NCBI GenBank assembly: GCA_019310525.1
Contig: JAFDEE010000016.1
Span: 3,394-67,393 of the forward strand
Length of the DNA: 64,000 nucleotides
Reading direction: 5' to 3'
Origin: Deltaproteobacteria bacterium
GTDB taxonomy: Bacteria; Desulfobacterota; DSM-4660; Desulfatiglandales; HGW-15
Every line of letters begins with the position of its first letter. Position 1 is the first letter of the stretch. Shown piece after piece: positions 18,861-64,000 of the stretch. The position numbers and the translations under genes were made by a program. The notes beneath the pieces are model-generated. The model did not search any database, was not told the DNA's origin, and worked only from the letters and a program-made list of their open reading frames with translations.

Positions 18861-19898
18861 TCATTGCGACGCTCTTTCCGCTTCATCCCTGTCTTCGAAG
18901 TACTGAAAGGCGTCGATGATGTCAAGATAGACCCCGTCGAAACCTGCATCAAGGATCTTTTTGAGATAAGACTTCTGATTGCCGAAAATGATTCCCTGCC
19001 ATTCCGGATCCCAATAACAGACCTTGTAGTTGCCGGGCCAGTCGGGATTCTCTTCCGCGAGCCACTCCGGTGGATGCTTCTTCCATTCCTCTTGCCAATA
19101 ATACCGGTACTCCTCCGCCTCCCCGATACTCATGTAGGCGATGACCAGCCGTTTCCCCCCACCGGATTTTCGTTTAAGGATGGTAAGATCACTGGGCGTC
19201 AGAGGTTTGTCGCCGAAAAAAAGATCCAGGATCACCAGATCATAGTCGGTAGCGGAGACGGCCGAAATGAATGCGTCTTTGCTCGAATACTCCCCCGGGT
19301 TGATCAGGTATAGGAAATTTTTCGCCTCCCCAAGGGAGCCGATCGGGGCGGAGTCGGCTTTGAACGGCGGTCGGGGATAGGAGGGAATCCGGTCCAGGTC
19401 CCGGCTTTCAGCCCCGAAGCTCAGGTATCCCATTTCAGCGTTTCGGGCGTAGGAATCCTCCATGAATTCAGGGGTCCGGCAGTAGTCCGTCACCAGGACG
19501 GCCAACCCCCTCTCCCTGGCCAGGTTCAGGAAGGGCAAAATGACCTTCCTTAAGGAATCCGGTGTGGCCTTGTCGTCTTTATCGTACCCGTAAAACAGGC
19601 TTTCCTGCCCGATTCCATCAATAGCATCCAAGTAGTTCCAGGCCGGCGGACCCGTTGCCTCACCATTCAATGTCAGGAGTTCAACGCCGTTTTGAGGGAT
19701 GACGGCGAAATCGGGACGGAGGTGTTTTGCATAGCGGCTGATGCTGATCACGAACCGGCGCATTTCCCCCCGATAATCCTTGGCCGGAGGATAATGGGCG
19801 CAGGCCCCGGAACAGGCGAGAACCAGGATGAGCCCAAAAATTATGAAGAGTCGGTATAGGAAATCTTTTTCTGAAGATCCGGGCCTCATATCACCCAT
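18861..19898 (-). CDS. secreted TIM-barrel glycoside hydrolase, GH114/GH166 (PelA hydrolase-domain)-like
   Basis: Signal or lipoprotein-like N-terminus (LFIIFGLILVLACSG). The C-terminal segment VIAYMSIGEAEEYRYYWQEEW...DWPGNYKVCYWDPEWQGII...AGFDGVYLDIIDAF is typical of the endo-alpha-1,4-polygalactosaminidase/PelA-h fold. The start is probably ATG 19898 or 19889, at the pelG stop, not 19979. It is the last gene of the pel-like operon. Confidence 0.6.
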   Translation of the reverse strand: MGDMRPGSSEKDFLYRLFIIFGLILVLACSGACAHYPPAKDYRGEMRRFVISISRYAKHLRPDFAVIPQNGVELLTLNGEATGPPAWNYLDAIDGIGQESLFYGYDKDDKATPDSLRKVILPFLNLARERGLAVLVTDYCRTPEFMEDSYARNAEMGYLSFGAESRDLDRIPSYPRPPFKADSAPIGSLGEAKNFLYLINPGEYSSKDAFISAVSATDYDLVILDLFFGDKPLTPSDLTILKRKSGGGKRLVIAYMSIGEAEEYRYYWQEEWKKHPPEWLAEENPDWPGNYKVCYWDPEWQGIIFGNQKSYLKKILDAGFDGVYLDIIDAFQYFEDRDEAERASQ

Positions 19899-21288
19899 TA
19901 CTCCCTTTCCCCTTTTCCTTCCTTTGTTCCTCAACGGCTTTCCTGAAAACCTCATACTCCAGTCCTCCCACCCTTCCATTCACCAGGAAAAAGGCCGTAA
20001 GGGCTGAAATCACCGATGCTGCCATGAATCCCGTTCCAAAGAACTTCCAGCCCAGTTTAATGGAGATGAAAGTAAATCCGGAGTTGGTAAAAAGAAACAG
20101 GGTGTTCAGAAGCACCAGCCCCTTGAAATCGTCCAGATATTGCAGGACGAGAAAATAGAAGAAATAAAGCGAAAAGAAAATCGATCCCAGGAGAAGATAG
20201 TGGAACACAAAGGGGTTCTTCCACGGGAACGGAATGGATCGGAAGTAAAGGAAGAAAAGCACGAGCAGGGACAGCCCTCCGTAAAAGAGGAGGATGGAGG
20301 ATGAAACCTGGCCGATCCCCTGAACAAGTCTGAATTTTTCAAGGGCCAGCTCACGAAAGGGAAAATTGTTGTAAAGTTTGTAGACAAAGGCTTCATAAGG
20401 ACCTGTGATGCGCCTTTTCATGCCCTTGTAAACGAGCAGGGATCCGATCATCATGAGGGTAATGGCGATGAAGAAAGGAAAATCGTATTCGGCAGAGTAA
20501 TGGAAGAAAGGGTCATAGGCATCACCCGTTCCCGGGAAAAACCAGAAAACCATCTTGTCGGCCCAGAACCCAAGGGTGAATGAAAAAAGGGAAAACCCCA
20601 GGCGGCCGGCCCCCTTTTTCCTCAAAAAGGCCCAGTTCAAAAAGAGTTTTTCCCTCATGTAAAGCTTCACGAGATACCCGTACCCCCCCGCCGTAGGCAC
20701 GAGCATTCCAATGGAAAATACCAGCAGGAGCCTTTCCGTACCCCGAGGTTTCATGAGGAGAAAGAGGCAAAGACCGAAGGAAACCCCCCCGATGAAAAGC
20801 TTGAACATCAACCGTTCTTTCTGGAGGGCGGAAAAAACACTGCTGATGCACCAGAGGAGAGAAAGGATGGTCGTGAGGGCCACAAAGCCGACCTTAAGGG
20901 CTGCAGAGATGGTCGAAAAGTAGAAGATCATCAGGGAGGAGAGGCCGAGGCTCAGACCGGCTACCAACACCGTCAGGGCCAGCATGCCGCTCGCAACCTC
21001 CTGGAGGTGTCCCAGGAAGATTTCGTCGGCAAGATACCGTGCGAACATGGAGTGCAGTGGGGAGGAGAGGATCAGGGAAAGGGCCGTTCCATAGGTTATC
21101 ATGAGGTAGAAGAGAAGAGGGGGTTTCCCGGTGATGATACTCACCCCAAGTCCCATGACCACCAGGGAAAAGACCGTGAGGAACCACGGGCCGATGGCCT
21201 CGAAGGAATCCCCGGCCTCCCTCACGGCTGAGAGGGTCAAAAGGGGCTTCTTGGTTCTTCTTTCAAGCAGAAAAATGGTGCCCGGCAT
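19891..21288 (-). CDS. pelG: PelG-like polytopic membrane protein (putative Pel export/polymer-handling component)
   Basis: 465 aa with about 12 hydrophobic segments, similar in size to PelG (~456 aa). It lies immediately downstream of, and overlapping, a PelF-type GT in pelD-E-F-G order. Confidence 0.6.
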   Translation of the reverse strand: MPGTIFLLERRTKKPLLTLSAVREAGDSFEAIGPWFLTVFSLVVMGLGVSIITGKPPLLFYLMITYGTALSLILSSPLHSMFARYLADEIFLGHLQEVASGMLALTVLVAGLSLGLSSLMIFYFSTISAALKVGFVALTTILSLLWCISSVFSALQKERLMFKLFIGGVSFGLCLFLLMKPRGTERLLLVFSIGMLVPTAGGYGYLVKLYMREKLFLNWAFLRKKGAGRLGFSLFSFTLGFWADKMVFWFFPGTGDAYDPFFHYSAEYDFPFFIAITLMMIGSLLVYKGMKRRITGPYEAFVYKLYNNFPFRELALEKFRLVQGIGQVSSSILLFYGGLSLLVLFFLYFRSIPFPWKNPFVFHYLLLGSIFFSLYFFYFLVLQYLDDFKGLVLLNTLFLFTNSGFTFISIKLGWKFFGTGFMAASVISALTAFFLVNGRVGGLEYEVFRKAVEEQRKEKGKGSNG

Positions 21289-22747
21289 GCCTCAACAACT
21301 CCCTGTAAATTTCTCTGTACTCTTCAGCAATCCGCTCTTCCCTGTAAAAGGCCTCGATCCGCCTGATTCCGCTTTCCGCCAGTCGGTCGGCCAACCGGGG
21401 ATCCCCGAGAATCCTGACCGTGGCCTCTGCAATCCCCTCTGCGTCCATGACGCCCCGCACCAGGCCGGCCTCTCCCATCTCGTCATCTTCCCGCCCGTAG
21501 AGAAGCTCCCGGCAGGCCCCCACGTCCGTGGCTACCACCGGGACGCCGCTGGCCATGGCCTCCATCACCACCAGGGGCATGGCCTCTTTGATGCTGGTAA
21601 GGACGAGGACATCCATTTTCCTGTAATAGTCAAGGACGTCGGCCCTTCCTGTGAAGGTGACGGTCTCTTCAAGGTCCAGCATTCTGATAAGGTCCCGGCA
21701 TTCCTGAAAATATCCCGGCTGATCGCTGGTGGGGCCGATCACCAGGGCCTGCATCTCGGGGAACTCCTTTCTGACCATGGCCATGGCCTGGATGAAGGTC
21801 TTGATATCCTTGACGCTGTCCACCCTGCCCACGAAGCCCACCGTCCGGGGTAAACTCCTGCACCGGGGGGAGCGGGCGGAGACAAAGCGCTCAACATCGA
21901 TCCCGTTCGGGATCACCTGGATTCGACCCTCCCGGGCGCCGTACTCCATTTCCAGCCTTTTGTTCCCCTCGTAGAGGGTGATGATCCTGTCACTGAATCC
22001 ATACTGCCAGTGACACAGGGCTGTGAAGGCCTCGATCCACATGTCCTTGAGATAAGGGTCATCCAGCCAGTCCGATTTCAGGAGTTCCATCTCTCTTTCC
22101 TGAAGATAGATTCCATGTTCGGTGATGATGGAAGGCGTCCCATATAGGGCCTTTCTCAAACAGGCGATGAATCCCGCGAAACCGGTCCCCGGCGCATGAT
22201 AGAGGGCCGAAGAAGGCAAACGGGGGATGAGGGTGAGAACGCGGAAGAAGATCAGATGGATATTCCTGAAGTTGTAAAAGTATTTCACAAAACCCGCATC
22301 TTCCCGGAATTCTCCATTCAGGCGGGTCAGTAAGGCGAAGGCACCTTCATCTTCGAGGAAGTTACGGAATATTCCCGTAGGGGCCTGAAGGACCACTTCC
22401 CTGAGAATTCCGATGCTCTCTTCCGATAGAACTCCACGCCGCCATTCCTTCATGAGGCGGTAGAGCCTCTCCTGGAGTTCCCGCCACCTTTGGCGGGAGA
22501 GGGTCAGGGGGACGCTGTCCTCGATTTCACTGTAATCAAAGAGGACGTACTCCTCATAGGCCACGAGGTTCGGAGGGAAAGGGTATTTCCGATCTTCCTC
22601 CCGTTTCTTTTCCGCGATCAGGGCCACCACGGAAAAGGTGAACTCTGGAAGATTCTCCATGAGCCACTGGAGCCAAGAAGCCACCCCTCCGGTAACATAG
22701 GGGTAACTGCCCTCTACAACCAGGCAGATGTCAGAACGGTTTTCCAA
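21263..22747 (-). CDS. pelF: PelF-like GT4 glycosyltransferase
   Basis: 494 aa. The N-terminus SDICLVVEGSYPYVTGGVASWLQWLMENLPEFTFSVVAL matches the DUF3492/PelF-specific N-domain I recall. The C-terminal GT4 core has the EAMPLVVMEAMASGVPVVATDVG motif. Confidence 0.8.
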   Translation of the reverse strand: MENRSDICLVVEGSYPYVTGGVASWLQWLMENLPEFTFSVVALIAEKKREEDRKYPFPPNLVAYEEYVLFDYSEIEDSVPLTLSRQRWRELQERLYRLMKEWRRGVLSEESIGILREVVLQAPTGIFRNFLEDEGAFALLTRLNGEFREDAGFVKYFYNFRNIHLIFFRVLTLIPRLPSSALYHAPGTGFAGFIACLRKALYGTPSIITEHGIYLQEREMELLKSDWLDDPYLKDMWIEAFTALCHWQYGFSDRIITLYEGNKRLEMEYGAREGRIQVIPNGIDVERFVSARSPRCRSLPRTVGFVGRVDSVKDIKTFIQAMAMVRKEFPEMQALVIGPTSDQPGYFQECRDLIRMLDLEETVTFTGRADVLDYYRKMDVLVLTSIKEAMPLVVMEAMASGVPVVATDVGACRELLYGREDDEMGEAGLVRGVMDAEGIAEATVRILGDPRLADRLAESGIRRIEAFYREERIAEEYREIYRELLRHAGHHFSA

Positions 22748-59240: not shown

Positions 59241-59289
59241 ACCCTGCAACCGTATTGACTTGCCTCGGATTTTGTATAATATGGTATCA

Positions 59290-59655
59290 ACATACTTCCA
59301 GGTGCCCCACTGGGGGCTTAATAGGGAACCCCGTTAGAATCGGGGACGGGCCCGCCGCTGTGATCGGGGACGAAAACCGCGGTCCGCATTTCACAGGTTC
59401 TCCGGAACCGCTGAAATGAGGACAAAAGCCACTGTCCGGAATGCACACACGGATGAACCCTTTGAAAACGTTCAATTTTGTTCAAGGTCAAGGAAGACGA
59501 AAATTTTAACCACAGGAATACATTGAGTATTTCGAGGATTAAAATTTGAGTCTGACGCAGAAATTGGGCAAAAGGGGGCGTTTTCCAAAGGGTTCGAGGA
59601 TGGGAAGGCGCGGGGAGTAGGAAGAACCGTAAGTCAGAAGACCTGCCTGGAAGAA
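59290..59655 (+). promoter_or_regulatory. cobalamin (B12) riboswitch 1, unusually long
   Basis: Conserved elements in the correct order: GGUGCC, AAUAGGGAA (59320-59328), GUUAGAAUC, CGGGCCCGCCGCUGU, GCCACUG (59428-59434), GGGAAGGC (59601-59608), and the B12 box AGUCAGAAGACCUGCC (59632-59647). A 141-nt element is nested between GCCACUG and GGGAAGGC. Confidence 0.75.
59455..59595 (+). repeat. AT-rich 141-nt element with 16/17-nt terminal inverted repeats, copy R (nested in riboswitch 1)
   Basis: GAACCCTTTGAAAACG (59455-59470) is the reverse complement of CGTTTTCCAAAGGGTTC (59579-59595), apart from one extra C. The interior is AT-rich, and its left ~80 nt are homologous to 33905-34010. Confidence 0.7.
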
Positions 59656-59715
59656 AAGAGGTAGCCCTCGCGGAACAGGGCTTGCCGACCAAGATCTCGA
59701 GGATAAAAACGGGAT

Positions 59716-59756
59716 ATCCCCGGATCGATGCCTATGTCGATCCGGGGATTTTTTTT
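59716..59756 (+). terminator. rho-independent terminator (expression platform of riboswitch 1)
   Basis: A 13-bp perfect stem ATCCCCGGATCGA / TCGATCCGGGGAT with an 8-nt loop, followed by a run of about 8 T. Confidence 0.85.
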
Positions 59757-59917
59757 CTACACGGGTTGCGTCTCATCAAGTCCCTTCTTTCCAGCCCTGT
59801 TCCGACCTGGGAGCCCTCTGCCCCGAAATGGCATTTGATTTTGCCGGTTTCGGAAAACTGACTTATATTTATTTATAACTAAGTGATTTTATTCGATTAA
59901 TTGGGAGGGGATGATCG

Positions 59918-60331
59918 ATGGCCTGCCATGAAGGAATCAAGAAGGCGGTACGTTTTATAAGGAATCATTTCAGGGAGCCGTTGACCCTTGATCAGGTGGC
60001 GATGGAGAGCGGCATGAGCAAATATCACTTTGCAAGGGTCTTCAAGGTTTCTACAGGCATGACTTTCAAGGAATACCACAACCGGAGACGGATCGAGGAG
60101 GCGAAGGCCCTGTTGTGTAATCGTACGATGCGGGTGACTGACGTGTGTTATGAGGTGGGATTCAATGACATCTCTTATTTTGACCGGGTTTTCAGGCGTC
60201 TGGTAGGCGTCAACCCCACTTCATATAAGAGGCGTCCGGAAACAACATCATCCGATTTTTCTTCTCCCGCAAAGGAAAAAGGCAATTTTGTGCAAATAAA
60301 AGGCAATATCATCCAAGCATTTCAAAAATAA
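59918..60331 (+). CDS. stand-alone AraC/XylS-type HTH DNA-binding protein (MarA/SoxS-sized)
   Basis: 137 aa comprising only the dual-HTH AraC C-terminal module (LTLDQVAMESGMSKYHFARVFKVSTGMTFKEYHNRRRIEEAKALL...VTDVCYEVGFNDISYFDRVFRRLVGVNPTSYKRR). There is no ligand or dimerisation domain. GGGAGGGG SD. Confidence 0.8.
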   Translation: MACHEGIKKAVRFIRNHFREPLTLDQVAMESGMSKYHFARVFKVSTGMTFKEYHNRRRIEEAKALLCNRTMRVTDVCYEVGFNDISYFDRVFRRLVGVNPTSYKRRPETTSSDFSSPAKEKGNFVQIKGNIIQAFQK

Positions 60332-60344
60332 AATTCGATATAGT

Positions 60345-60525
60345 CCACGCAATTCTTCAGAGCAGGAGAAAGGGAAAGCGGTGAGAGGCCGCTGCTGCCC
60401 CGCAACTGTATTCCCGATTCTCGAACAATGAGAATCCGTGTCCAGGCCATTAGAGCCACTGTTCCGTAAAGGTTGGAATGGGAAGGCGGTCGGGACCGGG
60501 AAAGCCAGGAAACCTTGCCTGTTCT
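60345..60525 (+). promoter_or_regulatory. cobalamin (B12) riboswitch 2, canonical size
   Basis: AAAGGGAAAGCGGUGAGAGGCCGCUGCUGCCCCGCAACUGU, GCCACUG (60455-60461), GGGAAGGC (60480-60487), and B12 box AGCCAGGAAACCUUGCC (60503-60519). Confidence 0.85.
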
Positions 60526-60542
60526 TCTTTTGCCGAGGCCCA

Positions 60543-60589
60543 GCGAGGGAGGGGACGACGGCACGGGTCGTTTCAGTGGTCGCTTTTTT
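60543..60589 (+). terminator. possible terminator/attenuator after riboswitch 2
   Basis: Composite hairpin: an outer GCGA/TCGC stem and an inner 8-bp GGGACGAC/GUCGUUUC stem with a 7-nt loop, followed by TTTTTT (60584-60589). The stem is imperfect. Confidence 0.4.
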
Positions 60590-60740
60590 GAAGCCGCCAC
60601 TCCCGCCGTGTTTTTCCCTTACCGCACCCTCCGCTTCGCTGACCCTTGGAAAATCCAGAGTCGTTCCGGTTCCTCTGGAATAAGAAGAGAAGTCACCAGT
60701 CGATTAAGCCATGAACAAAAAAAGAGAGAGGAGAAATGTC

Positions 60741-61541
60741 ATGCCAAGAAAGATCTGTTTAATGCTCTTTTTATGGATGTTAGCCATGTTGAGTAGCTTG
60801 CCTTCAACCGTCGTCCTGGCAGGGCCCTATGCCCCCGCCGCCGGCCAGCCCGGATCCACGGCCATTCACATGGACAGTTCGGACTTCGTGGGTTGGGCAA
60901 CGGGCTGGATTGATTACTTACCGGGAGAAGAGGTGGATTCGAAATGGCAGACTCCAGAGAAGGCCCTGGGGAAGGCTGTGGGCACCTCCTATGATATCGT
61001 AACCCTCGGGCGGGGTGGGCGGATCACAATGACCTTCGATACCCCCATTGCAGACGGGGAGGGTTGGGATTTCGCAGTTTTCGAGAATTCCTTCAACGAT
61101 ACCTTCCTGGAATTGGGTTACGTGGAGGTTTCCTCGAACGGCGTGGATTTCTTCCGGTTCCCGAACGATTCCCTCACGCCTGACCCGGTTGGAGGGTTCG
61201 GGGCGCTGGACCCCACGAATATCACCGGGTTGGCCGGCAAGTACCGCCAGGGCTACGGAACACCGTTTGACCTCGGAGTCCTTGATGGTGTGGATCCCCT
61301 GCTTGATGTCCACAATGTGGGCTGGGTACGGATCATCGATATCATAGGGGATGGGACATACCTGGATACATCAGGGGATATCATCTACGACCCTTATCCT
61401 ACAGTGGGAAGCGCTGGTTTTGATCTGGATGCCGTGGGAGTGATAAACGCCGCCCCCGTGCCTCTCCCCGGGACCGCCTTTTTGCTGGGAAGCGGCTTGT
61501 TCGGTCTCCTGGGAATGAGAAGAAGGTTTCGTTCTCGATGA
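60741..61541 (+). CDS. PEP-CTERM-anchored secreted protein of unknown function
   Basis: ATG at 60741 follows GAGGAG, and a signal peptide is present ([23 protein letters not shown]). The C-terminal sorting signal [27 protein letters not shown] has the PEP-CTERM architecture (P-rich motif, TM helix, Arg cluster). Confidence 0.75.
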
Positions 61542-61593
61542 TCAAATACTACTGCTGTTTTTATCAAAACAACTTGTAAGGGGAGGAAGATCC

Positions 61594-62472
61594 ATGAGAA
61601 GACTTGTCTTTTATTTATTCATGTTATCCATGTTATCCATTTTACTGCCGTTTCAGACCCATGCGGCCGTGGCTACTTTTGACGACAATCCGCTTGCCCC
61701 CAACAGCCATTGGGGAGGTGCCGGTTCCACAGAGACCGGCTTTGTCAGCGGAGATGCCTACTTCCCGCACCATGCTGACACATACTCCTGGCACGGCTTC
61801 GTCTATTCCAACGAGACCGATACCACGACACCGGGATACACCAACCAGTTCAGCGCCATTACCGGTGGAGGAGTATACGGTTCTTCCAATTACGGAGTGG
61901 GCTACATCCCCCTGGACTGGCAGAATGGAACCTATGACCCGGTTCCACAGACCCTGAGCTTCGGCGCCTCCTCGGGGGAGGACTACAACACCGTCATTTC
62001 AGGGGCCTACTTCACCAATACCACCTATGCATATCTTTCCATGAGGGACGGGGATTCCTTTGCAAAGAAATTCGGTGGATCCACAGGGGATGATCCTGAC
62101 TGGTTCAAGCTGATCATTAAAGGGATCGACGAAAACGGGGACTATACCGGAACCTTGGAGTTTTATCTTGCGGATTTCCGGTTTGAAGACGACTCCCAGG
62201 ATTACATCGTGGATGACTGGACCTGGGTGGACCTCTCCGGCCTGGGTGCTGTTATCGGGCTGGAATTCAGCATCGATTCTTCGGACAAAGGACAGTGGGG
62301 AATAAACACACCCGCCTACTTTGCAATAGACGATCTTAACGGCGTACCTCCTTCTCCTGTCCCCCTGCCTGCTTCTCTGTGGTTGCTGGGCTCCGGTCTC
62401 CTTGGCTTGATCGGTGTAAGGAGACGCAGCCTGAAAGAGCCCGGAAAAACCGGCAACCCGTTGAACCGGTAA
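61594..62472 (+). CDS. DUF4465-like secreted protein with PEP-CTERM anchor
   Basis: Signal peptide. ATFDDNPLAPNSHWGG...SWHGFVYSNETDTTTPGYTNQFSAITGGGVYGSSNYGVGY matches the DUF4465 pattern I recall. The C-terminal VPLPASLWLLGSGLLGLIGVRRR is a PEP-CTERM signal. Confidence 0.7.
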   Translation: MRRLVFYLFMLSMLSILLPFQTHAAVATFDDNPLAPNSHWGGAGSTETGFVSGDAYFPHHADTYSWHGFVYSNETDTTTPGYTNQFSAITGGGVYGSSNYGVGYIPLDWQNGTYDPVPQTLSFGASSGEDYNTVISGAYFTNTTYAYLSMRDGDSFAKKFGGSTGDDPDWFKLIIKGIDENGDYTGTLEFYLADFRFEDDSQDYIVDDWTWVDLSGLGAVIGLEFSIDSSDKGQWGINTPAYFAIDDLNGVPPSPVPLPASLWLLGSGLLGLIGVRRRSLKEPGKTGNPLNR

Positions 62473-62555
62473 CGCCGGTACAACAGGCAGAACCTGCAGT
62501 CCCGGCCCTGGTCTTGATCAGGGTGCGGCAATCGAAATTGCCGCAGGGGAGGAAA

Positions 62556-62600
62556 GGTATCCCGGGCTTCTTTTAAGACCCCGGGATACCTCTTTTCTCC
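62556..62600 (+). terminator. rho-independent terminator-like hairpin between the DUF4465 gene and the TonB-dependent receptor
   Basis: An 11-bp perfect stem GGTATCCCGGG / CCCGGGATACC with a 13-nt loop, then TCTTTTCTCC. It is preceded by a second hairpin TGCGGCAAT-CGAA-ATTGCCGCA (62524-62545). Confidence 0.55.
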
Positions 62601-62676
62601 CTGGGGGTGGGGTGTAATCTGCAAATCTCCAATAAACCGAATCATCAGGAACAGGAACCGAAAAAGGTAATCTGGA

Positions 62677-64000
62677 ATGAAGCACTCTCGAAACCTCTGT
62701 GTAATTCTGGCGTGCCTTTTTTCTTTTTTCCTCATGCAGGCACTTGATACTCCACTGGTATCTTTTGCACATGCTGAAGAAGAGACACCGGATTCGAAGG
62801 AGGTTCAGGCCGTCGATCCCCATCCCCGCCCCCGTTTTGAACTGGAGGAAGTCATCGTCATGGCGGCGGGTTTGGAGGAGGAAATCAAGAAGATCCCTAA
62901 GAATGTCACCGTCATCACAGAGGAAGATATCGCCCAGGCTCCCAGTAATAATCTGGTGGATCTGCTCGCAAGGGAAGCAGGCGTCGTGATCCGAAGTTCC
63001 TTCGGGCATGATAAGATAGCCGGTGTTGACATCCGTGGTATGGGGGACACCTATGTCAGCAACGTTATCGTCATGGTGGACGGATACAGGCTGAACCCCC
63101 CTGACCTAGCGGGCCCAGACTTCTCTTCCATCTCTCTCGATCAGGTGGAAAAGATCGAGATCATCAGGGGGGCTGGGTCTGTGGTATACGGGGACGGCGC
63201 CGTCGGGGGAGTAATAAACATCATCACAAAAAAAGGGAAGAAAAAACCTCAACTCCGCTTATATTCTTCTTATGGAAGTTACGATACCTTTGACGGAAGA
63301 GCATCCTGGAGGGGAATGTTCAAAAGCGTTTACTTCAATGTGAATGCCAATTACTACGGTTCGGATGGATACAGGGACAACGGGTTCTTCCGGAAAAAAG
63401 GGGGAGGCATGAACCTGGACTACGATTTGGGAGAGAGAATAACACTTTCCCTTCGTGCCTCAACACACCGTGACTCTTACGGCCTTCCCGCATACGTGAA
63501 CAAGGATGACATCGATTCCAGGGAGAAGAGGACCCTCACCTTTCGGCCCGACGATTCGGGTGATACGAGGGATGACCGTCTCATGGCGGGGTTTGAGATC
63601 GATCTCGGTGACTGGGGGACCCTGGAGATCCACAGGGGATATCGGTTCCGGGATAACTTCTATCTAATGGGGTATACACCGCTTCTGAGCAGGGCGGAAC
63701 AGACGGACCATATAAATGAAAATACCAGGCTTTTTGACCTGGGGTATTCAAAGGAATATGAGCTTTTCAAGAGGTCGAACACTCTTCGTGTCGGGCTCGA
63801 TCATTTCAAGACAGAGTATTTCAGGGAAGAGAATTCAAGGAATCAGAGAAAGAACAGTGAGGTGAAAACCCTCGGGTTCTTTATCACCAATCGGATGGAC
63901 CTCTCCCATGGTCTAAGCCTGCATTTGGGTTGCCGGCGCAACACTTTTAAGGGCGTGTTCCGAAACGACCAACATGTCAATTTCGGGGGGAAGCGGATCT
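62677..64000 (+). CDS. TonB-dependent receptor (5' partial; runs off the window), BtuB-like by context
   Basis: This ORF is not in the track because it is open to the window end. Signal peptide MKHSRNLCVILACLFSFFLMQALD. Plug-domain motifs EEVIVMAAG, VTVITEEDIAQAPSNNLVDLL, DIRGMG and IEIIRGAGSVVYGDGAVGGVINIITKKG. No stop codon occurs in 441 codons. Confidence 0.85.
   Translation, partial: MKHSRNLCVILACLFSFFLMQALDTPLVSFAHAEEETPDSKEVQAVDPHPRPRFELEEVIVMAAGLEEEIKKIPKNVTVITEEDIAQAPSNNLVDLLAREAGVVIRSSFGHDKIAGVDIRGMGDTYVSNVIVMVDGYRLNPPDLAGPDFSSISLDQVEKIEIIRGAGSVVYGDGAVGGVINIITKKGKKKPQLRLYSSYGSYDTFDGRASWRGMFKSVYFNVNANYYGSDGYRDNGFFRKKGGGMNLDYDLGERITLSLRASTHRDSYGLPAYVNKDDIDSREKRTLTFRPDDSGDTRDDRLMAGFEIDLGDWGTLEIHRGYRFRDNFYLMGYTPLLSRAEQTDHINENTRLFDLGYSKEYELFKRSNTLRVGLDHFKTEYFREENSRNQRKNSEVKTLGFFITNRMDLSHGLSLHLGCRRNTFKGVFRNDQHVNFGGKRI

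What the first reader, a model, noticed from the sequence alone, without database searches (positions are those of the whole stretch)
60345..64000. Second B12 riboswitch controlling PEP-CTERM-anchored surface proteins (one DUF4465-like) and a TonB-dependent receptor
A canonical cobalamin riboswitch (60345-60525) precedes two secreted proteins that both end in a PEP-CTERM sorting signal (VPLP + TM helix + RRR). One shows the DUF4465 pattern. A BtuB-like TonB-dependent receptor follows. As I recall, DUF4465-type domains were reported as surface B12-binding proteins (BtuH) in Bacteroides, where they are lipoproteins. Here the same putative corrinoid-capture module would instead be attached by the exosortase/PEP-CTERM route, together with a second uncharacterised protein (60741-61541). 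This suggests a differently anchored extracellular B12-scavenging system.
Basis: partly seen in the sequence, partly recalled or inferred. Interest (0 to 1): 0.55.

Follow-up and report, generated by a model that had tools for sequence, protein, structure and literature searches.

The report
Riboswitch-controlled surface vitamin B12 capture operon
A vitamin B12-sensing RNA switch controls two secreted surface proteins and an outer-membrane importer; one protein belongs to a known B12-binding family, and the unnamed one is a distant relative of a second B12-binding domain so far studied mainly in gut Bacteroides.

Summary
A strong cobalamin riboswitch lies at 60336-60530 (73.8 bits). It precedes ORF-A (60741-61541), ORF-B (61594-62472) and a TonB-dependent receptor that starts at 62677 and runs off the window.

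ORF-B is a clear DUF4465 protein (E 5e-60). It matches solved B12-bound structures and carries a PEP-CTERM/VPLPA-CTERM tail above threshold.

The interpretation needs two corrections.
- DUF4465 is BtuJ, not BtuH.
- PEP-CTERM-tagged DUF4465 proteins have already been counted in print (88 of 824).

The more novel part is ORF-A.
- It has no Pfam, NCBIfam or PDB sequence match.
- It represents at least 1,281 clusters (50% identity) across many phyla.
- It is almost always found in cobalamin-riboswitch, DUF4465 and TonB-receptor loci, and is often fused to DUF4465.
- Profile-profile comparison gives probability 91-96% (E 1e-7 to 1e-8; controls 0.3% or less). A high-confidence model has as its best PDB match the B. 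thetaiotaomicron BtuG1/BtuGH chain. Both point to a remote homologue of the BtuH B12-binding domain, and the phosphate-contacting Asn is invariant.

The locus is therefore best read as a B12-repressed BtuH-like + BtuJ-like + BtuB-like capture system, probably anchored by the exosortase route. B12 binding, B12 repression and anchoring are all untested.

The parts
60336..60530 (+). Cobalamin riboswitch aptamer (the second in this region)
   Evidence: Rfam RF00174, 73.8 bits against a gathering score of 31.5, E 2.7e-16, full-length match with B12 box AGCCAGGAAACC.
60558..60615 (+). Terminator-like hairpin (60558-60609) followed by UUUUU (60611-60615); the likely expression platform (inferred)
   Evidence: RNA fold of 60545-60625: -34.5 kcal/mol, z -2.6, 1 of 200 shuffles as stable. 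The simple terminator scan missed it because the loop is long.
60741..61541 (+). ORF-A, 266 aa: signal peptide (60741-60821), BtuH-like 'A-domain' (60822-61454), PEP-CTERM/VPLPA-type tail (61455-61538)
   Evidence: No Pfam, NCBIfam or PDB sequence hit to the body. AF2 model of the domain has pLDDT 94.4. The top Foldseek PDB hit is 8blw_B, the BtuG1/BtuGH chain (E 2.1e-4, TMq 0.48). hhalign against BtuH gives Prob 67-96%, E 5e-5 to 1e-8, with controls at 0.3% or less. More than 7,000 clusters at 90% identity pass E<=1e-3, and 1,281 representatives at 50% identity pass E<=1e-30.
61594..62472 (+). ORF-B, 292 aa: signal peptide (61594-61665), DUF4465/BtuJ-type B12-binding jelly roll (about 61783-62337), VPLPA/PEP-CTERM tail (62356-62427)
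   Evidence: PF14717 E 5.2e-60; PF07589 and TIGR03370 above cut-off. PDB sequence matches: 9HMU E 6.9e-27, 9FCT (BtuJ1) 2.2e-22, 9I2L (BtuJ2) 4.5e-9. The HI-loop motif GINTPAYF and the DE-helix motif TNTTYAY are present (PMC13398666).
62505..62601 (+). Highly structured intergenic region: three hairpins, the last (62556-62590) followed by UCUUUUCU. Possibly an internal attenuator or mRNA-stabilising element between the binding-protein genes and the receptor gene
   Evidence: RNA fold of 62490-62620: -73.6 kcal/mol against a shuffle mean of -49.3, z -6.15, 0 of 200 shuffles as stable.
62677..64000 (+). TonB-dependent receptor, N-terminal 441 aa (Plug 62884-63213); runs off the window
   Evidence: Open frame. 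Plug E 1.1e-24. Best NCBIfam match is TonB-B12 TIGR01779 (108.7 bits, below cut-off). The barrel continues on the sister contig L082 (PF00593 E 1.5e-40).
59283..59453 (+). Upstream first cobalamin riboswitch (context only, not part of the finding's coordinates)
   Evidence: RF00174, 37.7 bits. It is followed by a weak third match at 59468-59664 carrying a good B12 box, then a strong terminator at 59716-59749.
59918..60331 (+). AraC-type HTH-only regulator gene lying between the two riboswitches (context)
   Evidence: PF12833 E 8.7e-24. The same arrangement, riboswitch - AraC regulator - riboswitch - J - A, occurs in L002.

Best explanation
This is a B12-repressed operon for capturing corrinoids at the cell surface and importing them across the outer membrane.

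Proposed mechanism:
1. When cobalamin is plentiful it binds the leader aptamer, and transcription probably stops at the hairpin and U-tract at 60558-60615.
2. When B12 is scarce the operon is expressed. It encodes ORF-A (a remote homologue of the BtuH B12-binding domain), ORF-B (a BtuJ/DUF4465 B12-binding jelly roll) and a BtuB-like TonB-dependent transporter. On the sister contig a second, larger BtuH-like protein follows.
3. Both small proteins are exported by Sec and carry PEP-CTERM/VPLPA-CTERM tails. They are presumably processed by an exosortase and displayed on or released from the cell surface, rather than lipid-anchored as in Bacteroides.
4. By analogy with the B. thetaiotaomicron relay (BtuJ passes B12 to BtuH or BtuG, then to BtuB), ORF-B captures corrinoid and passes it, directly or through ORF-A, to the transporter.

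Shown here: the riboswitch, the domain identities, the tails, and the cross-phylum linkage and fusion of the two domains.
Inferred: B12 binding by either protein, the order of hand-off, exosortase processing, and the termination mechanism.
For: Riboswitch: 73.8 bits, with a terminator-like platform.

ORF-B: DUF4465 E 5e-60. It is homologous to three B12-bound crystal structures and keeps the HI-loop Tyr motif. Eight divergent DUF4465 proteins bind B12 experimentally (PMC13398666).

ORF-A context:
- Of 42 well-flanked genomic loci from Desulfobacterota, Planctomycetota, Verrucomicrobiota, Beta- and Gammaproteobacteria, Myxococcota, Spirochaetota and others, 35 have a cobalamin-riboswitch hit upstream on the same strand and one more has an AdoCbl-II riboswitch. 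31 have DUF4465 and 30 have a TonB-dependent receptor in the same gene run. 41 of 42 have at least one of the three.
- The two domains are fused in one ORF in 12 loci, in either order, up to A-J-J-J proteins of about 2,000 aa.
- In the reverse direction, 19 of 23 well-flanked DUF4465-centred metagenomic loci contain an A-domain (8 fused), and 30 of 33 long ones have a riboswitch-like hit.

ORF-A relation to BtuH:
- hhalign of a diverse A-domain profile against a 7-sequence BtuH profile gives Prob 95.6%, E 1.1e-8 (local) and 90.8%, E 1.4e-7 (global). Reversed-sequence and DUF4465 controls give 0.3% or less.
- The tool-made comparisons give 67% and 81%.
- The AF2 model (pLDDT 94.4) has 8blw_B (BtuG1/BtuGH) as its best PDB match and its only hit at E<1e-3.
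- BtuH2 Asn399, which contacts the B12 phosphate (PMC8941943), aligns with N116 of ORF-A, invariant in 96 diverse members. BtuH2 Gln333 lies in the shared Y-x-PA-x-GQ motif.
- Architectures mirror BtuH: there are fusions to beta-propellers and to PKD/Ig domains.

Locus content: BtuC, BtuD, BtuF and a cob(I)alamin adenosyltransferase-like gene (assigned by sequence inspection) recur in the loci.
Against: - No experiment exists on any member of the ORF-A family.
- The A-domain/BtuH alignment is confident only over the N-terminal half to two-thirds. The corrin-contacting residues of BtuH2 (His476, Tyr510, Trp511, Trp577) could not be placed, and Gln333's equivalent is only 40% conserved.
- Foldseek TM of 0.48 is borderline. 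7BIZ itself was not in the top 50 with the better model, and generic discoidin/CBM32 sandwiches score similarly.
- ORF-A's PEP-CTERM tail is below the curated thresholds.
- No exosortase was found among the window ORFs scanned.
- The receptor is not a BtuB equivalog by NCBIfam score.
- The leader fold as a whole is not more stable than shuffles.
Confidence: 0.7

Rival explanations
1. ORF-A does not bind corrinoids. It is a lectin- or adhesin-like beta-sandwich that tethers the real binder (DUF4465) to exopolysaccharide, the cell surface or the receptor.
For: Apart from 8blw_B, the closest folds are discoidin, F5/8-C and CBM32 carbohydrate-binding modules (TMt 0.5-0.58). 77 of 98 members weakly match NF033170, the LIC_13355 family lipoprotein (best E 8.5e-5). 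A member of that family was reported to bind laminin and plasminogen in vitro (PMC11891782). PEP-CTERM proteins are classically linked to exopolysaccharide.
Against: The family is tied to cobalamin riboswitches and TonB receptors whatever the anchor type, and also in loci that lack DUF4465 (11 of 42). It shows specific profile similarity to BtuH, including the invariant Asn that contacts B12 in BtuH2. BtuH itself has only 'modest' similarity to CBM32-type domains (PMC8941943), so a CBM32-like fold does not argue against B12 binding.
Confidence: 0.2
2. The C-terminal tails act as plain membrane anchors, or are not processed by an exosortase. In that case both proteins face the periplasm and act as periplasmic B12 chaperones rather than surface scavengers.
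For: None of the window ORFs scanned is an exosortase. ORF-A's tail is below threshold. The published DUF4465 survey% of members periplasmic (PMC12751083).
Against: Across genomes, the A and J proteins carry whatever C-terminal sorting signal the host lineage uses: VPEP or VPLP PEP-CTERM, a G-C-F-I-x-T tail preceded by a choice-of-anchor U domain, or a Verrucomicrobial F-[WY]-R tail. This is the pattern expected of surface-sorted cargo. DUF4465 homologues in Bacteroides are surface or vesicle proteins. The genes sit next to the outer-membrane receptor gene more often than next to btuF/btuCD.
Confidence: 0.12
3. The operon handles a different ligand, such as incomplete corrinoids (cobinamide), another tetrapyrrole or a metal, and is only co-regulated by B12.
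For: The receptor scores about as well against siderophore and haem receptor models as against BtuB. BtuH2 contacts the parts of the molecule shared by all cobamides, not the lower ligand.
Against: Cobalamin-riboswitch control is conserved across phyla. DUF4465 proteins from eight lineages bind cobalamin itself. btuFCD and adenosyltransferase-like genes recur nearby.
Confidence: 0.05

Closest known systems
BtuJ1/BtuJ2 of Bacteroides thetaiotaomicron and the wider DUF4465 family (PF14717/IPR027828; PDB 9FCT, 9I2L, 9HMU)
   Same: ORF-B is a full-length DUF4465 jelly roll with the conserved NTPAY loop. It has a signal peptide, lies in a cobalamin-riboswitch locus and sits next to a TonB-dependent receptor.
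   Different: It has no lipobox. Instead it ends in a VPLPA/PEP-CTERM tail, an architecture already counted (88 of 824) but never studied. The organism is an uncultured Deltaproteobacteria/Desulfobacterota MAG, not a gut Bacteroides.
BtuH (BtuH1/BtuH2 and the BtuH domain of BtuGH/BtuG1; PDB 7BIZ, 8BLW chain B)
   Same: The ORF-A body shares these motifs:
- Y-x-PA-x-GQ at the N-terminus.
- LG-x-GG-x-IT-x-x-F...I-x-[ND]-x-x-G-x-DF-x-[VI]-x-x-N.
- VxVSxD/NG.
Its best PDB structural match is a BtuH-containing chain. The B12-phosphate-contacting Asn is invariant. It lies in btuB-type loci and occurs alone or fused to beta-propellers, PKD/Ig domains or other B12 binders.
   Different: Similarity is only at the profile level (about 13% identity in the Foldseek match to 8blw_B; 27% over the hhalign-aligned columns). 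The domain is shorter (about 210 vs 270 aa). The corrin-contacting residues are not identifiable. It is found outside Bacteroidota, carries PEP-CTERM or other C-terminal sorting tails instead of lipidation, and is frequently fused to DUF4465.
E. coli-type btuB controlled by a cobalamin riboswitch
   Same: A riboswitch leader precedes a TonB-dependent receptor with Plug and barrel domains.
   Different: Two surface binding-protein genes lie between the riboswitch and the receptor gene. The receptor is not a BtuB equivalog by score.
PEP-CTERM/exosortase cargo (Haft 2006); VPLPA-CTERM subclass (TIGR03370)
   Same: The C-terminal motif is VPLP, then a hydrophobic helix, then RRR at the end of Sec-exported proteins.
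   Different: The cargo here is a nutrient-capture module under a vitamin riboswitch, not an EPS or floc-associated protein. The cognate exosortase has not been located.
LIC_13355 family lipoprotein (NF033170, Leptospira)
   Same: It gives a weak local profile match to the FAVFEN...VEVSS core in 77 of 98 A-domain proteins.
   Different: The match is far below the family cut-off (120 bits). That family is lipoprotein-anchored, has no reported B12 context and has been described as an adhesin in vitro.

Membership tests
Cobalamin riboswitch (RF00174) | Covariance-model score at or above the gathering threshold over the full aptamer, including the B12 box | tested here: met
   73.8 bits against 31.5, model positions 1-189, E 2.7e-16.
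Cobalamin riboswitch (RF00174) | Ligand-dependent control of the downstream genes | not testable with these tools
   Only a terminator-like hairpin with a U5 tract was found, at 60558-60615.
DUF4465 / BtuJ (PF14717) | Pfam model above the gathering score across the whole domain | tested here: met
   203.2 bits against 25, profile positions 4-176 of 176.
DUF4465 / BtuJ (PF14717) | HI-loop NTPAY/GTPAYF motif with the B12-binding Tyr, and the DE-helix Tyr | tested here: met
   GINTPAYF and TNTTYAY align with 9HMU and 9FCT. T239 and P240 are invariant and Y242 is at least 90% conserved in the 40-sequence alignment of its clade. The motif is defined in PMC13398666.
DUF4465 / BtuJ (PF14717) | Binds cobalamin | not testable with these tools
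   Shown for eight other family members, including 9HMU, which matches ORF-B at E 6.9e-27.
PEP-CTERM / VPLPA-CTERM sorting signal | C-terminal motif plus TM helix plus basic cluster scoring above the curated cut-off | tested here: met
   For ORF-B: PF07589 22.9 against 20.7; TIGR03370 29.8 against 25.35.
PEP-CTERM / VPLPA-CTERM sorting signal | The same criterion applied to ORF-A | tested here: inconclusive
   PF07589 18.1 against 20.7; TIGR02595 13.2 against 16. The pattern is visible by eye, and 52 of 98 homologues match VPLPA-CTERM at E<=0.1.
PEP-CTERM / VPLPA-CTERM sorting signal | A cognate exosortase encoded in the genome | tested here: inconclusive
   None among about 30 larger window ORFs scanned with Pfam.
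BtuH B12-binding domain (no curated model; PDB 7BIZ, 8BLW_B) | Detectable sequence homology to BtuH1, BtuH2 or BtuGH | tested here: met
   Not detectable with HMMER against PDB. hhalign gives Prob 95.6%, E 1.1e-8 (local) and 90.8%, E 1.4e-7 (global), with reversed and DUF4465 controls at 0.3% or less. The tool-made comparisons give 67% and 81%. This is remote homology only.
BtuH B12-binding domain (no curated model; PDB 7BIZ, 8BLW_B) | Same fold as the BtuH C-terminal domain | tested here: inconclusive
   The best PDB hit is 8blw_B (E 2.1e-4, TMq 0.48). 7biz appeared only with the first, poorer model (TMq 0.39-0.40). Generic discoidin folds score close behind.
BtuH B12-binding domain (no curated model; PDB 7BIZ, 8BLW_B) | Conservation of the B12-contacting residues of BtuH2 (Gln333, Asn399, Phe401; His476, Tyr510, Trp511, Trp577) | tested here: inconclusive
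   Asn399 corresponds to N116, conserved in 100% of 96 members. Phe401 corresponds to F118 (65%). Gln333 corresponds to Q36 (40%). The four corrin-contacting residues lie in the part that does not align.
BtuH B12-binding domain (no curated model; PDB 7BIZ, 8BLW_B) | Encoded in a btuB-containing, B12-regulated operon | tested here: met
   This holds in the window and in 36 of 42 (riboswitch) and 30 of 42 (receptor) well-flanked loci.
BtuB (TIGR01779 / NF007926) | Equivalog-level score | tested here: not met
   108.7 bits against 599.7 for the 441-aa fragment. It is the best hit among TonB-receptor models, but siderophore-type models score close behind. It is therefore filed as a 'BtuB-like TonB-dependent receptor by context'.

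The most novel reading that the evidence does not exclude
ORF-A defines a large, unnamed, cross-phylum family of remote BtuH homologues: a second extracellular corrinoid-binding domain. Together with DUF4465/BtuJ it would form the general two-domain capture module of TonB-dependent B12 uptake outside Bacteroidota. The two occur adjacent, or fused in either order, up to roughly 2,000-aa A-J-J-J proteins. The module would be displayed through interchangeable C-terminal sorting signals rather than lipidation, and would operate without a BtuG lid.
Probability: 0.45. Interest if true: 0.7.

Novelty: new variant of a known kind. Interest (0 to 1): 0.58.

Why it matters
Competition for B12 shapes microbial communities, but the accessory capture proteins (BtuG, H, J, K) have been worked out almost entirely in gut Bacteroides.

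BtuH was described as having no known structural homologues. Outside Bacteroidetes, only three Firmicutes species were found with predicted homologues, in a survey of 313 gut species.

If the ORF-A family is a BtuH-type binder, a BtuH-like + BtuJ + BtuB relay is widespread in sediment, soil, freshwater and marine bacteria: Desulfobacterota, Planctomycetota, Verrucomicrobiota, methylotrophs and others.

This would have several consequences:
- It would give function to thousands of 'PEP-CTERM domain-containing' or hypothetical proteins.
- It would supply a rare example of a defined physiological cargo for exosortase sorting.
- It would offer new compact scaffolds for B12 capture.

The prediction is directly testable with two small soluble domains.

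Tried and rejected
- **Pfam and NCBIfam on ORF-A.** Only C-terminal tail models hit. The A1 profile against PDB sequences gave nothing relevant.
- **First full-length AF2 model.** pLDDT was 78.5 and the Foldseek hits were diffuse. It was replaced by a domain-only model with 98 sequences.
- **ORF-A as a divergent DUF4465.** Rejected. The hhalign match is confined to the PEP-CTERM tail, and the body-only control gave 0.1% probability.
- **Own covariance model R1.** It ended up with only 3 base pairs, so it was used only as a sequence-level detector and cross-checked with Rfam on 18 loci.
- **Bacteroidetes DUF4465 locus L085.** No transport context, so not useful.
- **Lipoprotein family (about 400-450 aa) that follows the receptor in Myxococcota and Gammaproteobacteria loci.** Only faint beta-propeller hints and no Pfam or PDB match, so a BtuG relationship could not be shown.
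- **N-terminal parts of larger A-domain proteins.** No BtuG homology by sequence.
- **Exosortase in the window.** None found among the ORFs scanned.
- **Literature search.** No paper links PEP-CTERM with B12 or cobalamin uptake beyond the one counting sentence.
- **LIC_13355.** A distant named relative with no B12 context in the papers read.

Full report
**Observation**

Rfam places a full-length cobalamin riboswitch aptamer at 60336-60530 on the + strand (73.8 bits; gathering score 31.5; E 2.7e-16). A weaker one lies at 59283-59453 (37.7 bits).

Three collinear ORFs lie downstream of the strong aptamer.
- ORF-A is 60741-61541 (266 aa). GGAG sits 9 nt before the ATG.
- ORF-B is 61594-62472 (292 aa).
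- A third ORF starts at 62677 and stays open for 441 codons to the window end.

ORF-B is an unambiguous DUF4465 protein (PF14717, 203 bits, E 5.2e-60). Its C-terminus passes the curated cut-offs of both PF07589 (PEP-CTERM) and TIGR03370 (VPLPA-CTERM).

ORF-A ends in a very similar tail ([29 protein letters not shown]) that falls just below the cut-offs (18.1 vs 20.7 bits). At the family level the signal is clear: 52 of 98 homologues match VPLPA-CTERM and 38 of 98 match PEP_CTERM at E<=0.1, and the sources' own names say so.

Both proteins start with Sec-type signal peptides and have no lipobox cysteine. This was judged by inspection.

The third ORF has a TonB-receptor Plug domain (E 1.1e-24). 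Its best NCBIfam match is the B12 receptor model, far below the equivalog cut-off. Its beta-barrel is seen on a sister contig.

**Regulatory anatomy**

A hairpin lies 28 nt after the aptamer (60558-60609) and is followed by UUUUU (60611-60615). Its fold has z -2.6. This is the likely transcription-termination platform, but that is an inference.

The 205-nt spacer between ORF-B and the receptor gene is unusually structured (z -6.15, 0 of 200 shuffles as stable). It ends in a GC-rich hairpin followed by UCUUUUCU. This could lower receptor expression relative to the binding proteins, or stabilise the upstream mRNA.

**What ORF-B is**

The literature says otherwise: DUF4465 is BtuJ (BtuJ1 = BT1491, BtuJ2 = BT1957), while BtuH is a different domain.

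ORF-B matches the solved B12 complexes 9HMU (E 6.9e-27), 9FCT/BtuJ1 (2.2e-22) and 9I2L/BtuJ2 (4.5e-9). It keeps the diagnostic HI-loop motif (GINTPAYF) and the DE-helix motif (TNTTYAY) (motif definition in PMC13398666). Eight divergent family members have been shown to bind B12.

The PEP-CTERM decoration is common among ORF-B's relatives. It has been counted in print: 88 of 824 DUF4465 sequences carry IPR013424 (PMC12751083), and IPR013424 is the PEP-CTERM domain.

ORF-B is therefore a new member of a known kind, with an anchor type that is recorded but unstudied.

**What ORF-A is**

The body of ORF-A has no Pfam, NCBIfam or PDB sequence match. Even so, it belongs to a very large and unusually conserved family.
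- More than 7,000 clusters at 90% identity pass E<=1e-3, with 60-78% identity across phyla among the listed top hits.
- In a library clustered at 50% identity, 1,281 representatives pass E<=1e-30. Their lengths range from 171 to about 2,570 aa.

I fetched 80 genomic loci from Desulfobacterota, Planctomycetota, Verrucomicrobiota, Kiritimatiellia, Beta- and Gammaproteobacteria, Myxococcota, Spirochaetota, Gemmatimonadales and Armatimonadota.

Rfam found a cobalamin riboswitch upstream on the same strand in 8 of 9 diverse loci. A sequence-level model extended this to all loci.

Among the 42 loci with enough flanking DNA:
- 35 have a cobalamin-riboswitch-like hit upstream and one more has an AdoCbl-II riboswitch, giving 36 in total.
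- 31 have DUF4465 in the same gene run.
- 30 have a TonB-dependent receptor in the same gene run.
- 41 have at least one of the three.

The gene order varies by lineage: riboswitch-A-J-receptor, riboswitch-J-receptor-A, or riboswitch-receptor-A-J. BtuC, BtuD, BtuF and an adenosyltransferase-like gene recur nearby. These were assigned by inspecting the cluster representatives.

In 12 loci the A-domain and DUF4465 are fused in one ORF, in either order. Planctomycete proteins reach A-J-J-J arrangements of about 2,000 aa.

The link also holds in the other direction. Of 23 well-flanked metagenomic loci fetched with DUF4465, 19 contain an A-domain, 8 of them fused. Of 33 long ones, 30 have a riboswitch-like hit upstream.

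On the sister contig of this very locus, a second A-domain protein (585 aa) follows the receptor gene.

**Relationship to BtuH**

A domain-only AlphaFold2 model built with 98 sequences is confident (pLDDT 94.4, pTM 0.92). Its best PDB match, and the only one at E<1e-3, is 8blw chain B (E 2.1e-4, TMq 0.48). That chain is B. thetaiotaomicron BtuG1/BtuGH, which carries a fused BtuH domain. Generic discoidin and CBM32 sandwiches follow. The earlier full-length model also hit 7BIZ (BtuH2).

To test homology by sequence I recovered BtuH sequences indirectly.
1. A BtuJ1 fragment read from the PDB alignment led to Bacteroides BtuJ1 homologues.
2. Their contigs reproduce B. thetaiotaomicron operon 1.
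3. The 282-aa gene there matches 7BIZ at E 3.5e-65 and 8BLW_B at E 2.7e-55, confirming it as BtuH1.

hhalign of the A-domain alignment against this sequence gave 67% probability (E 5e-5). Against five BtuH domains it gave 81% (E 1.2e-5).

With a more diverse A-domain profile (96 sequences at 62% identity or less) and seven BtuH domains, the results were:
- Local mode: 95.6% probability, E 1.1e-8.
- Global mode: 90.8% probability, E 1.4e-7.
- Reversed-sequence controls and a DUF4465-body control: 0.3% or less.

The shared features are:
- The N-terminal Y-x-PA-x-GQ motif (BtuH: EYxPAPGQFIN; ORF-A: [12 protein letters not shown]).
- The block SLGxFGGyITVxFxxxIxNxxGxYDFxIxGN in BtuH against [29 protein letters not shown] in ORF-A.
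- The following V-x-V-S strand.

Putnam et al. list the BtuH2 residues that contact B12. Mapping them with the chain offset of 100:
- Asn399 (phosphate contact) is the N of ...QGN... and aligns with ORF-A N116. N116 is conserved in 96 of 96 diverse members.
- Phe401 aligns with F118 (65% conserved).
- Gln333 is the Q of PAPGQ, and its equivalent is only 40% conserved.
- The four corrin-contacting residues lie in the C-terminal part that does not align.

The architectures also run parallel. A-domains occur fused to beta-propellers, as in BtuGH, and to PKD/Ig domains, as in BtuH2.

I conclude that ORF-A is most likely a remote homologue of the BtuH domain. I rate direct corrinoid binding at roughly even odds. 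The sequence, structure and context evidence point the same way, but each line is individually modest.

**Anchoring**

Across lineages the A and J proteins of one locus carry the same kind of C-terminal signal:
- VPEP- or VPLP-type PEP-CTERM in Proteobacteria, Planctomycetota and this MAG.
- A G-C-F-[IV]-x-[ST] tail in several Desulfobacterota. In this MAG's second A-protein it is preceded by a choice-of-anchor U domain (NF041766, 89.6 bits).
- An F-[WY]-R-[ILV] tail on A proteins of Verrucomicrobiota and Kiritimatiellia.

This interchangeability is what one expects of surface-sorted cargo. No exosortase gene is present among the window ORFs scanned, and the genome as a whole could not be searched.

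**Comparison and novelty**

The system works like the B. thetaiotaomicron extracellular relay, in which BtuJ passes B12 to BtuH or BtuG and then to BtuB (PMC13616437). It differs in several respects:
- the phylum;
- the anchoring chemistry;
- the apparent absence of a BtuG lid in this locus;
- the tight A-J coupling, including fusions.

The held literature contains nothing that links PEP-CTERM cargo to B12 uptake beyond one counting sentence. BtuH homologues outside Bacteroidetes were reported only for three Firmicutes species.

I therefore classify the finding as a new variant of a known kind. The riboswitch, DUF4465 and receptor are ordinary. The ORF-A family, and the module it forms with DUF4465, are the part worth following up.

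Noticed in passing
window 59283-60331: The first cobalamin riboswitch (59283-59453, 37.7 bits) has a poor B12 box. A weak third match (59468-59664; Rfam 17.2 bits, E 0.11) carries a canonical B12 box (AGUCAGAAGACCUGCC). A strong terminator follows at 59716-59749, then a promoter-like site at 59841-59869, and then a 137-aa AraC-type HTH-only gene that ends 5 nt before riboswitch 2. L002 shows the same pattern: riboswitch, cNMP-binding AraC regulator, riboswitch, J, A. This may be a B12-riboswitch-controlled transcription factor, or one transcript with two riboswitch checkpoints, as in B. thetaiotaomicron operon 1.
   Followed up: partly
L082 13911-15668 (same contig as the window, beyond its end); also L010, L012, L014, L018, L021, L033: Right after the receptor gene lies a second A-domain protein (585 aa). 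It has an Ig-like region, a choice-of-anchor U domain, a Gly/Asp-rich linker and the C-terminus GGGGGCFISTIEGGE. The same G-C-F-[IV]-x-[ST] ending occurs on both the A and J proteins of several Desulfobacterota loci. It looks like an unnamed C-terminal sorting or lipidation signal.
   Followed up: partly
L027, L032, L034, L038, L041, L042, L050, L052, L053, L056, L058, L061, L063, L068, L070, L073, L076, L078 (A-domain proteins): A-domain proteins of Verrucomicrobiota and Kiritimatiellia end in a conserved ...F[WY]R[ILV]xxxx C-terminus instead of PEP-CTERM, while their DUF4465 partners keep VPEP tails. This may be another lineage-specific C-terminal signal.
   Followed up: no
L003 794-877: A c-di-GMP-I-GGC riboswitch (RF03167, 64 bits) sits directly upstream of a PEP-CTERM DUF4465 gene and a weak A-like gene in a Desulfobacula MAG. 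Here the same kind of gene pair is under a different riboswitch.
   Followed up: no
L076 5014-5086: An AdoCbl-II riboswitch (RF01689, 41.5 bits) replaces the classical cobalamin riboswitch upstream of DUF4465. Four Opitutales-type loci (L063, L070, L074, L078) have the J-receptor-A or receptor-A cluster but no Rfam riboswitch hit.
   Followed up: partly
L019, L044, L059, L065, L069, L079 (genes just after the TonB receptor): A conserved family of lipoproteins of about 370-460 aa follows the receptor gene in Myxococcota and Gammaproteobacteria loci. It shows only a faint beta-propeller hint and has no Pfam or PDB match. It may be a BtuG- or BtuK-like partner.
   Followed up: partly
L082 11916-13895 compared with window 62677-64000: The receptor gene is split into three ORFs on the sister contigs (L001, L082) by small deletions, but it reads open in the window. 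These are assembly errors or strain variants.
   Followed up: partly
window 18861-22747: Pel-type exopolysaccharide genes are present on the minus strand: a GH114 PelA-like gene, PelG and a PelF-like glycosyltransferase. No exosortase was found among the window ORFs scanned.
   Followed up: partly
L005, L007, L008, L027, L031, L039, L048, L060, L075: Genes with a prepilin-type N-terminus (judged by inspecting one representative sequence; from my own knowledge they resemble DUF1559-type proteins) recur next to the A/J genes in Planctomycetota-type loci that lack an adjacent TonB receptor.
   Followed up: no
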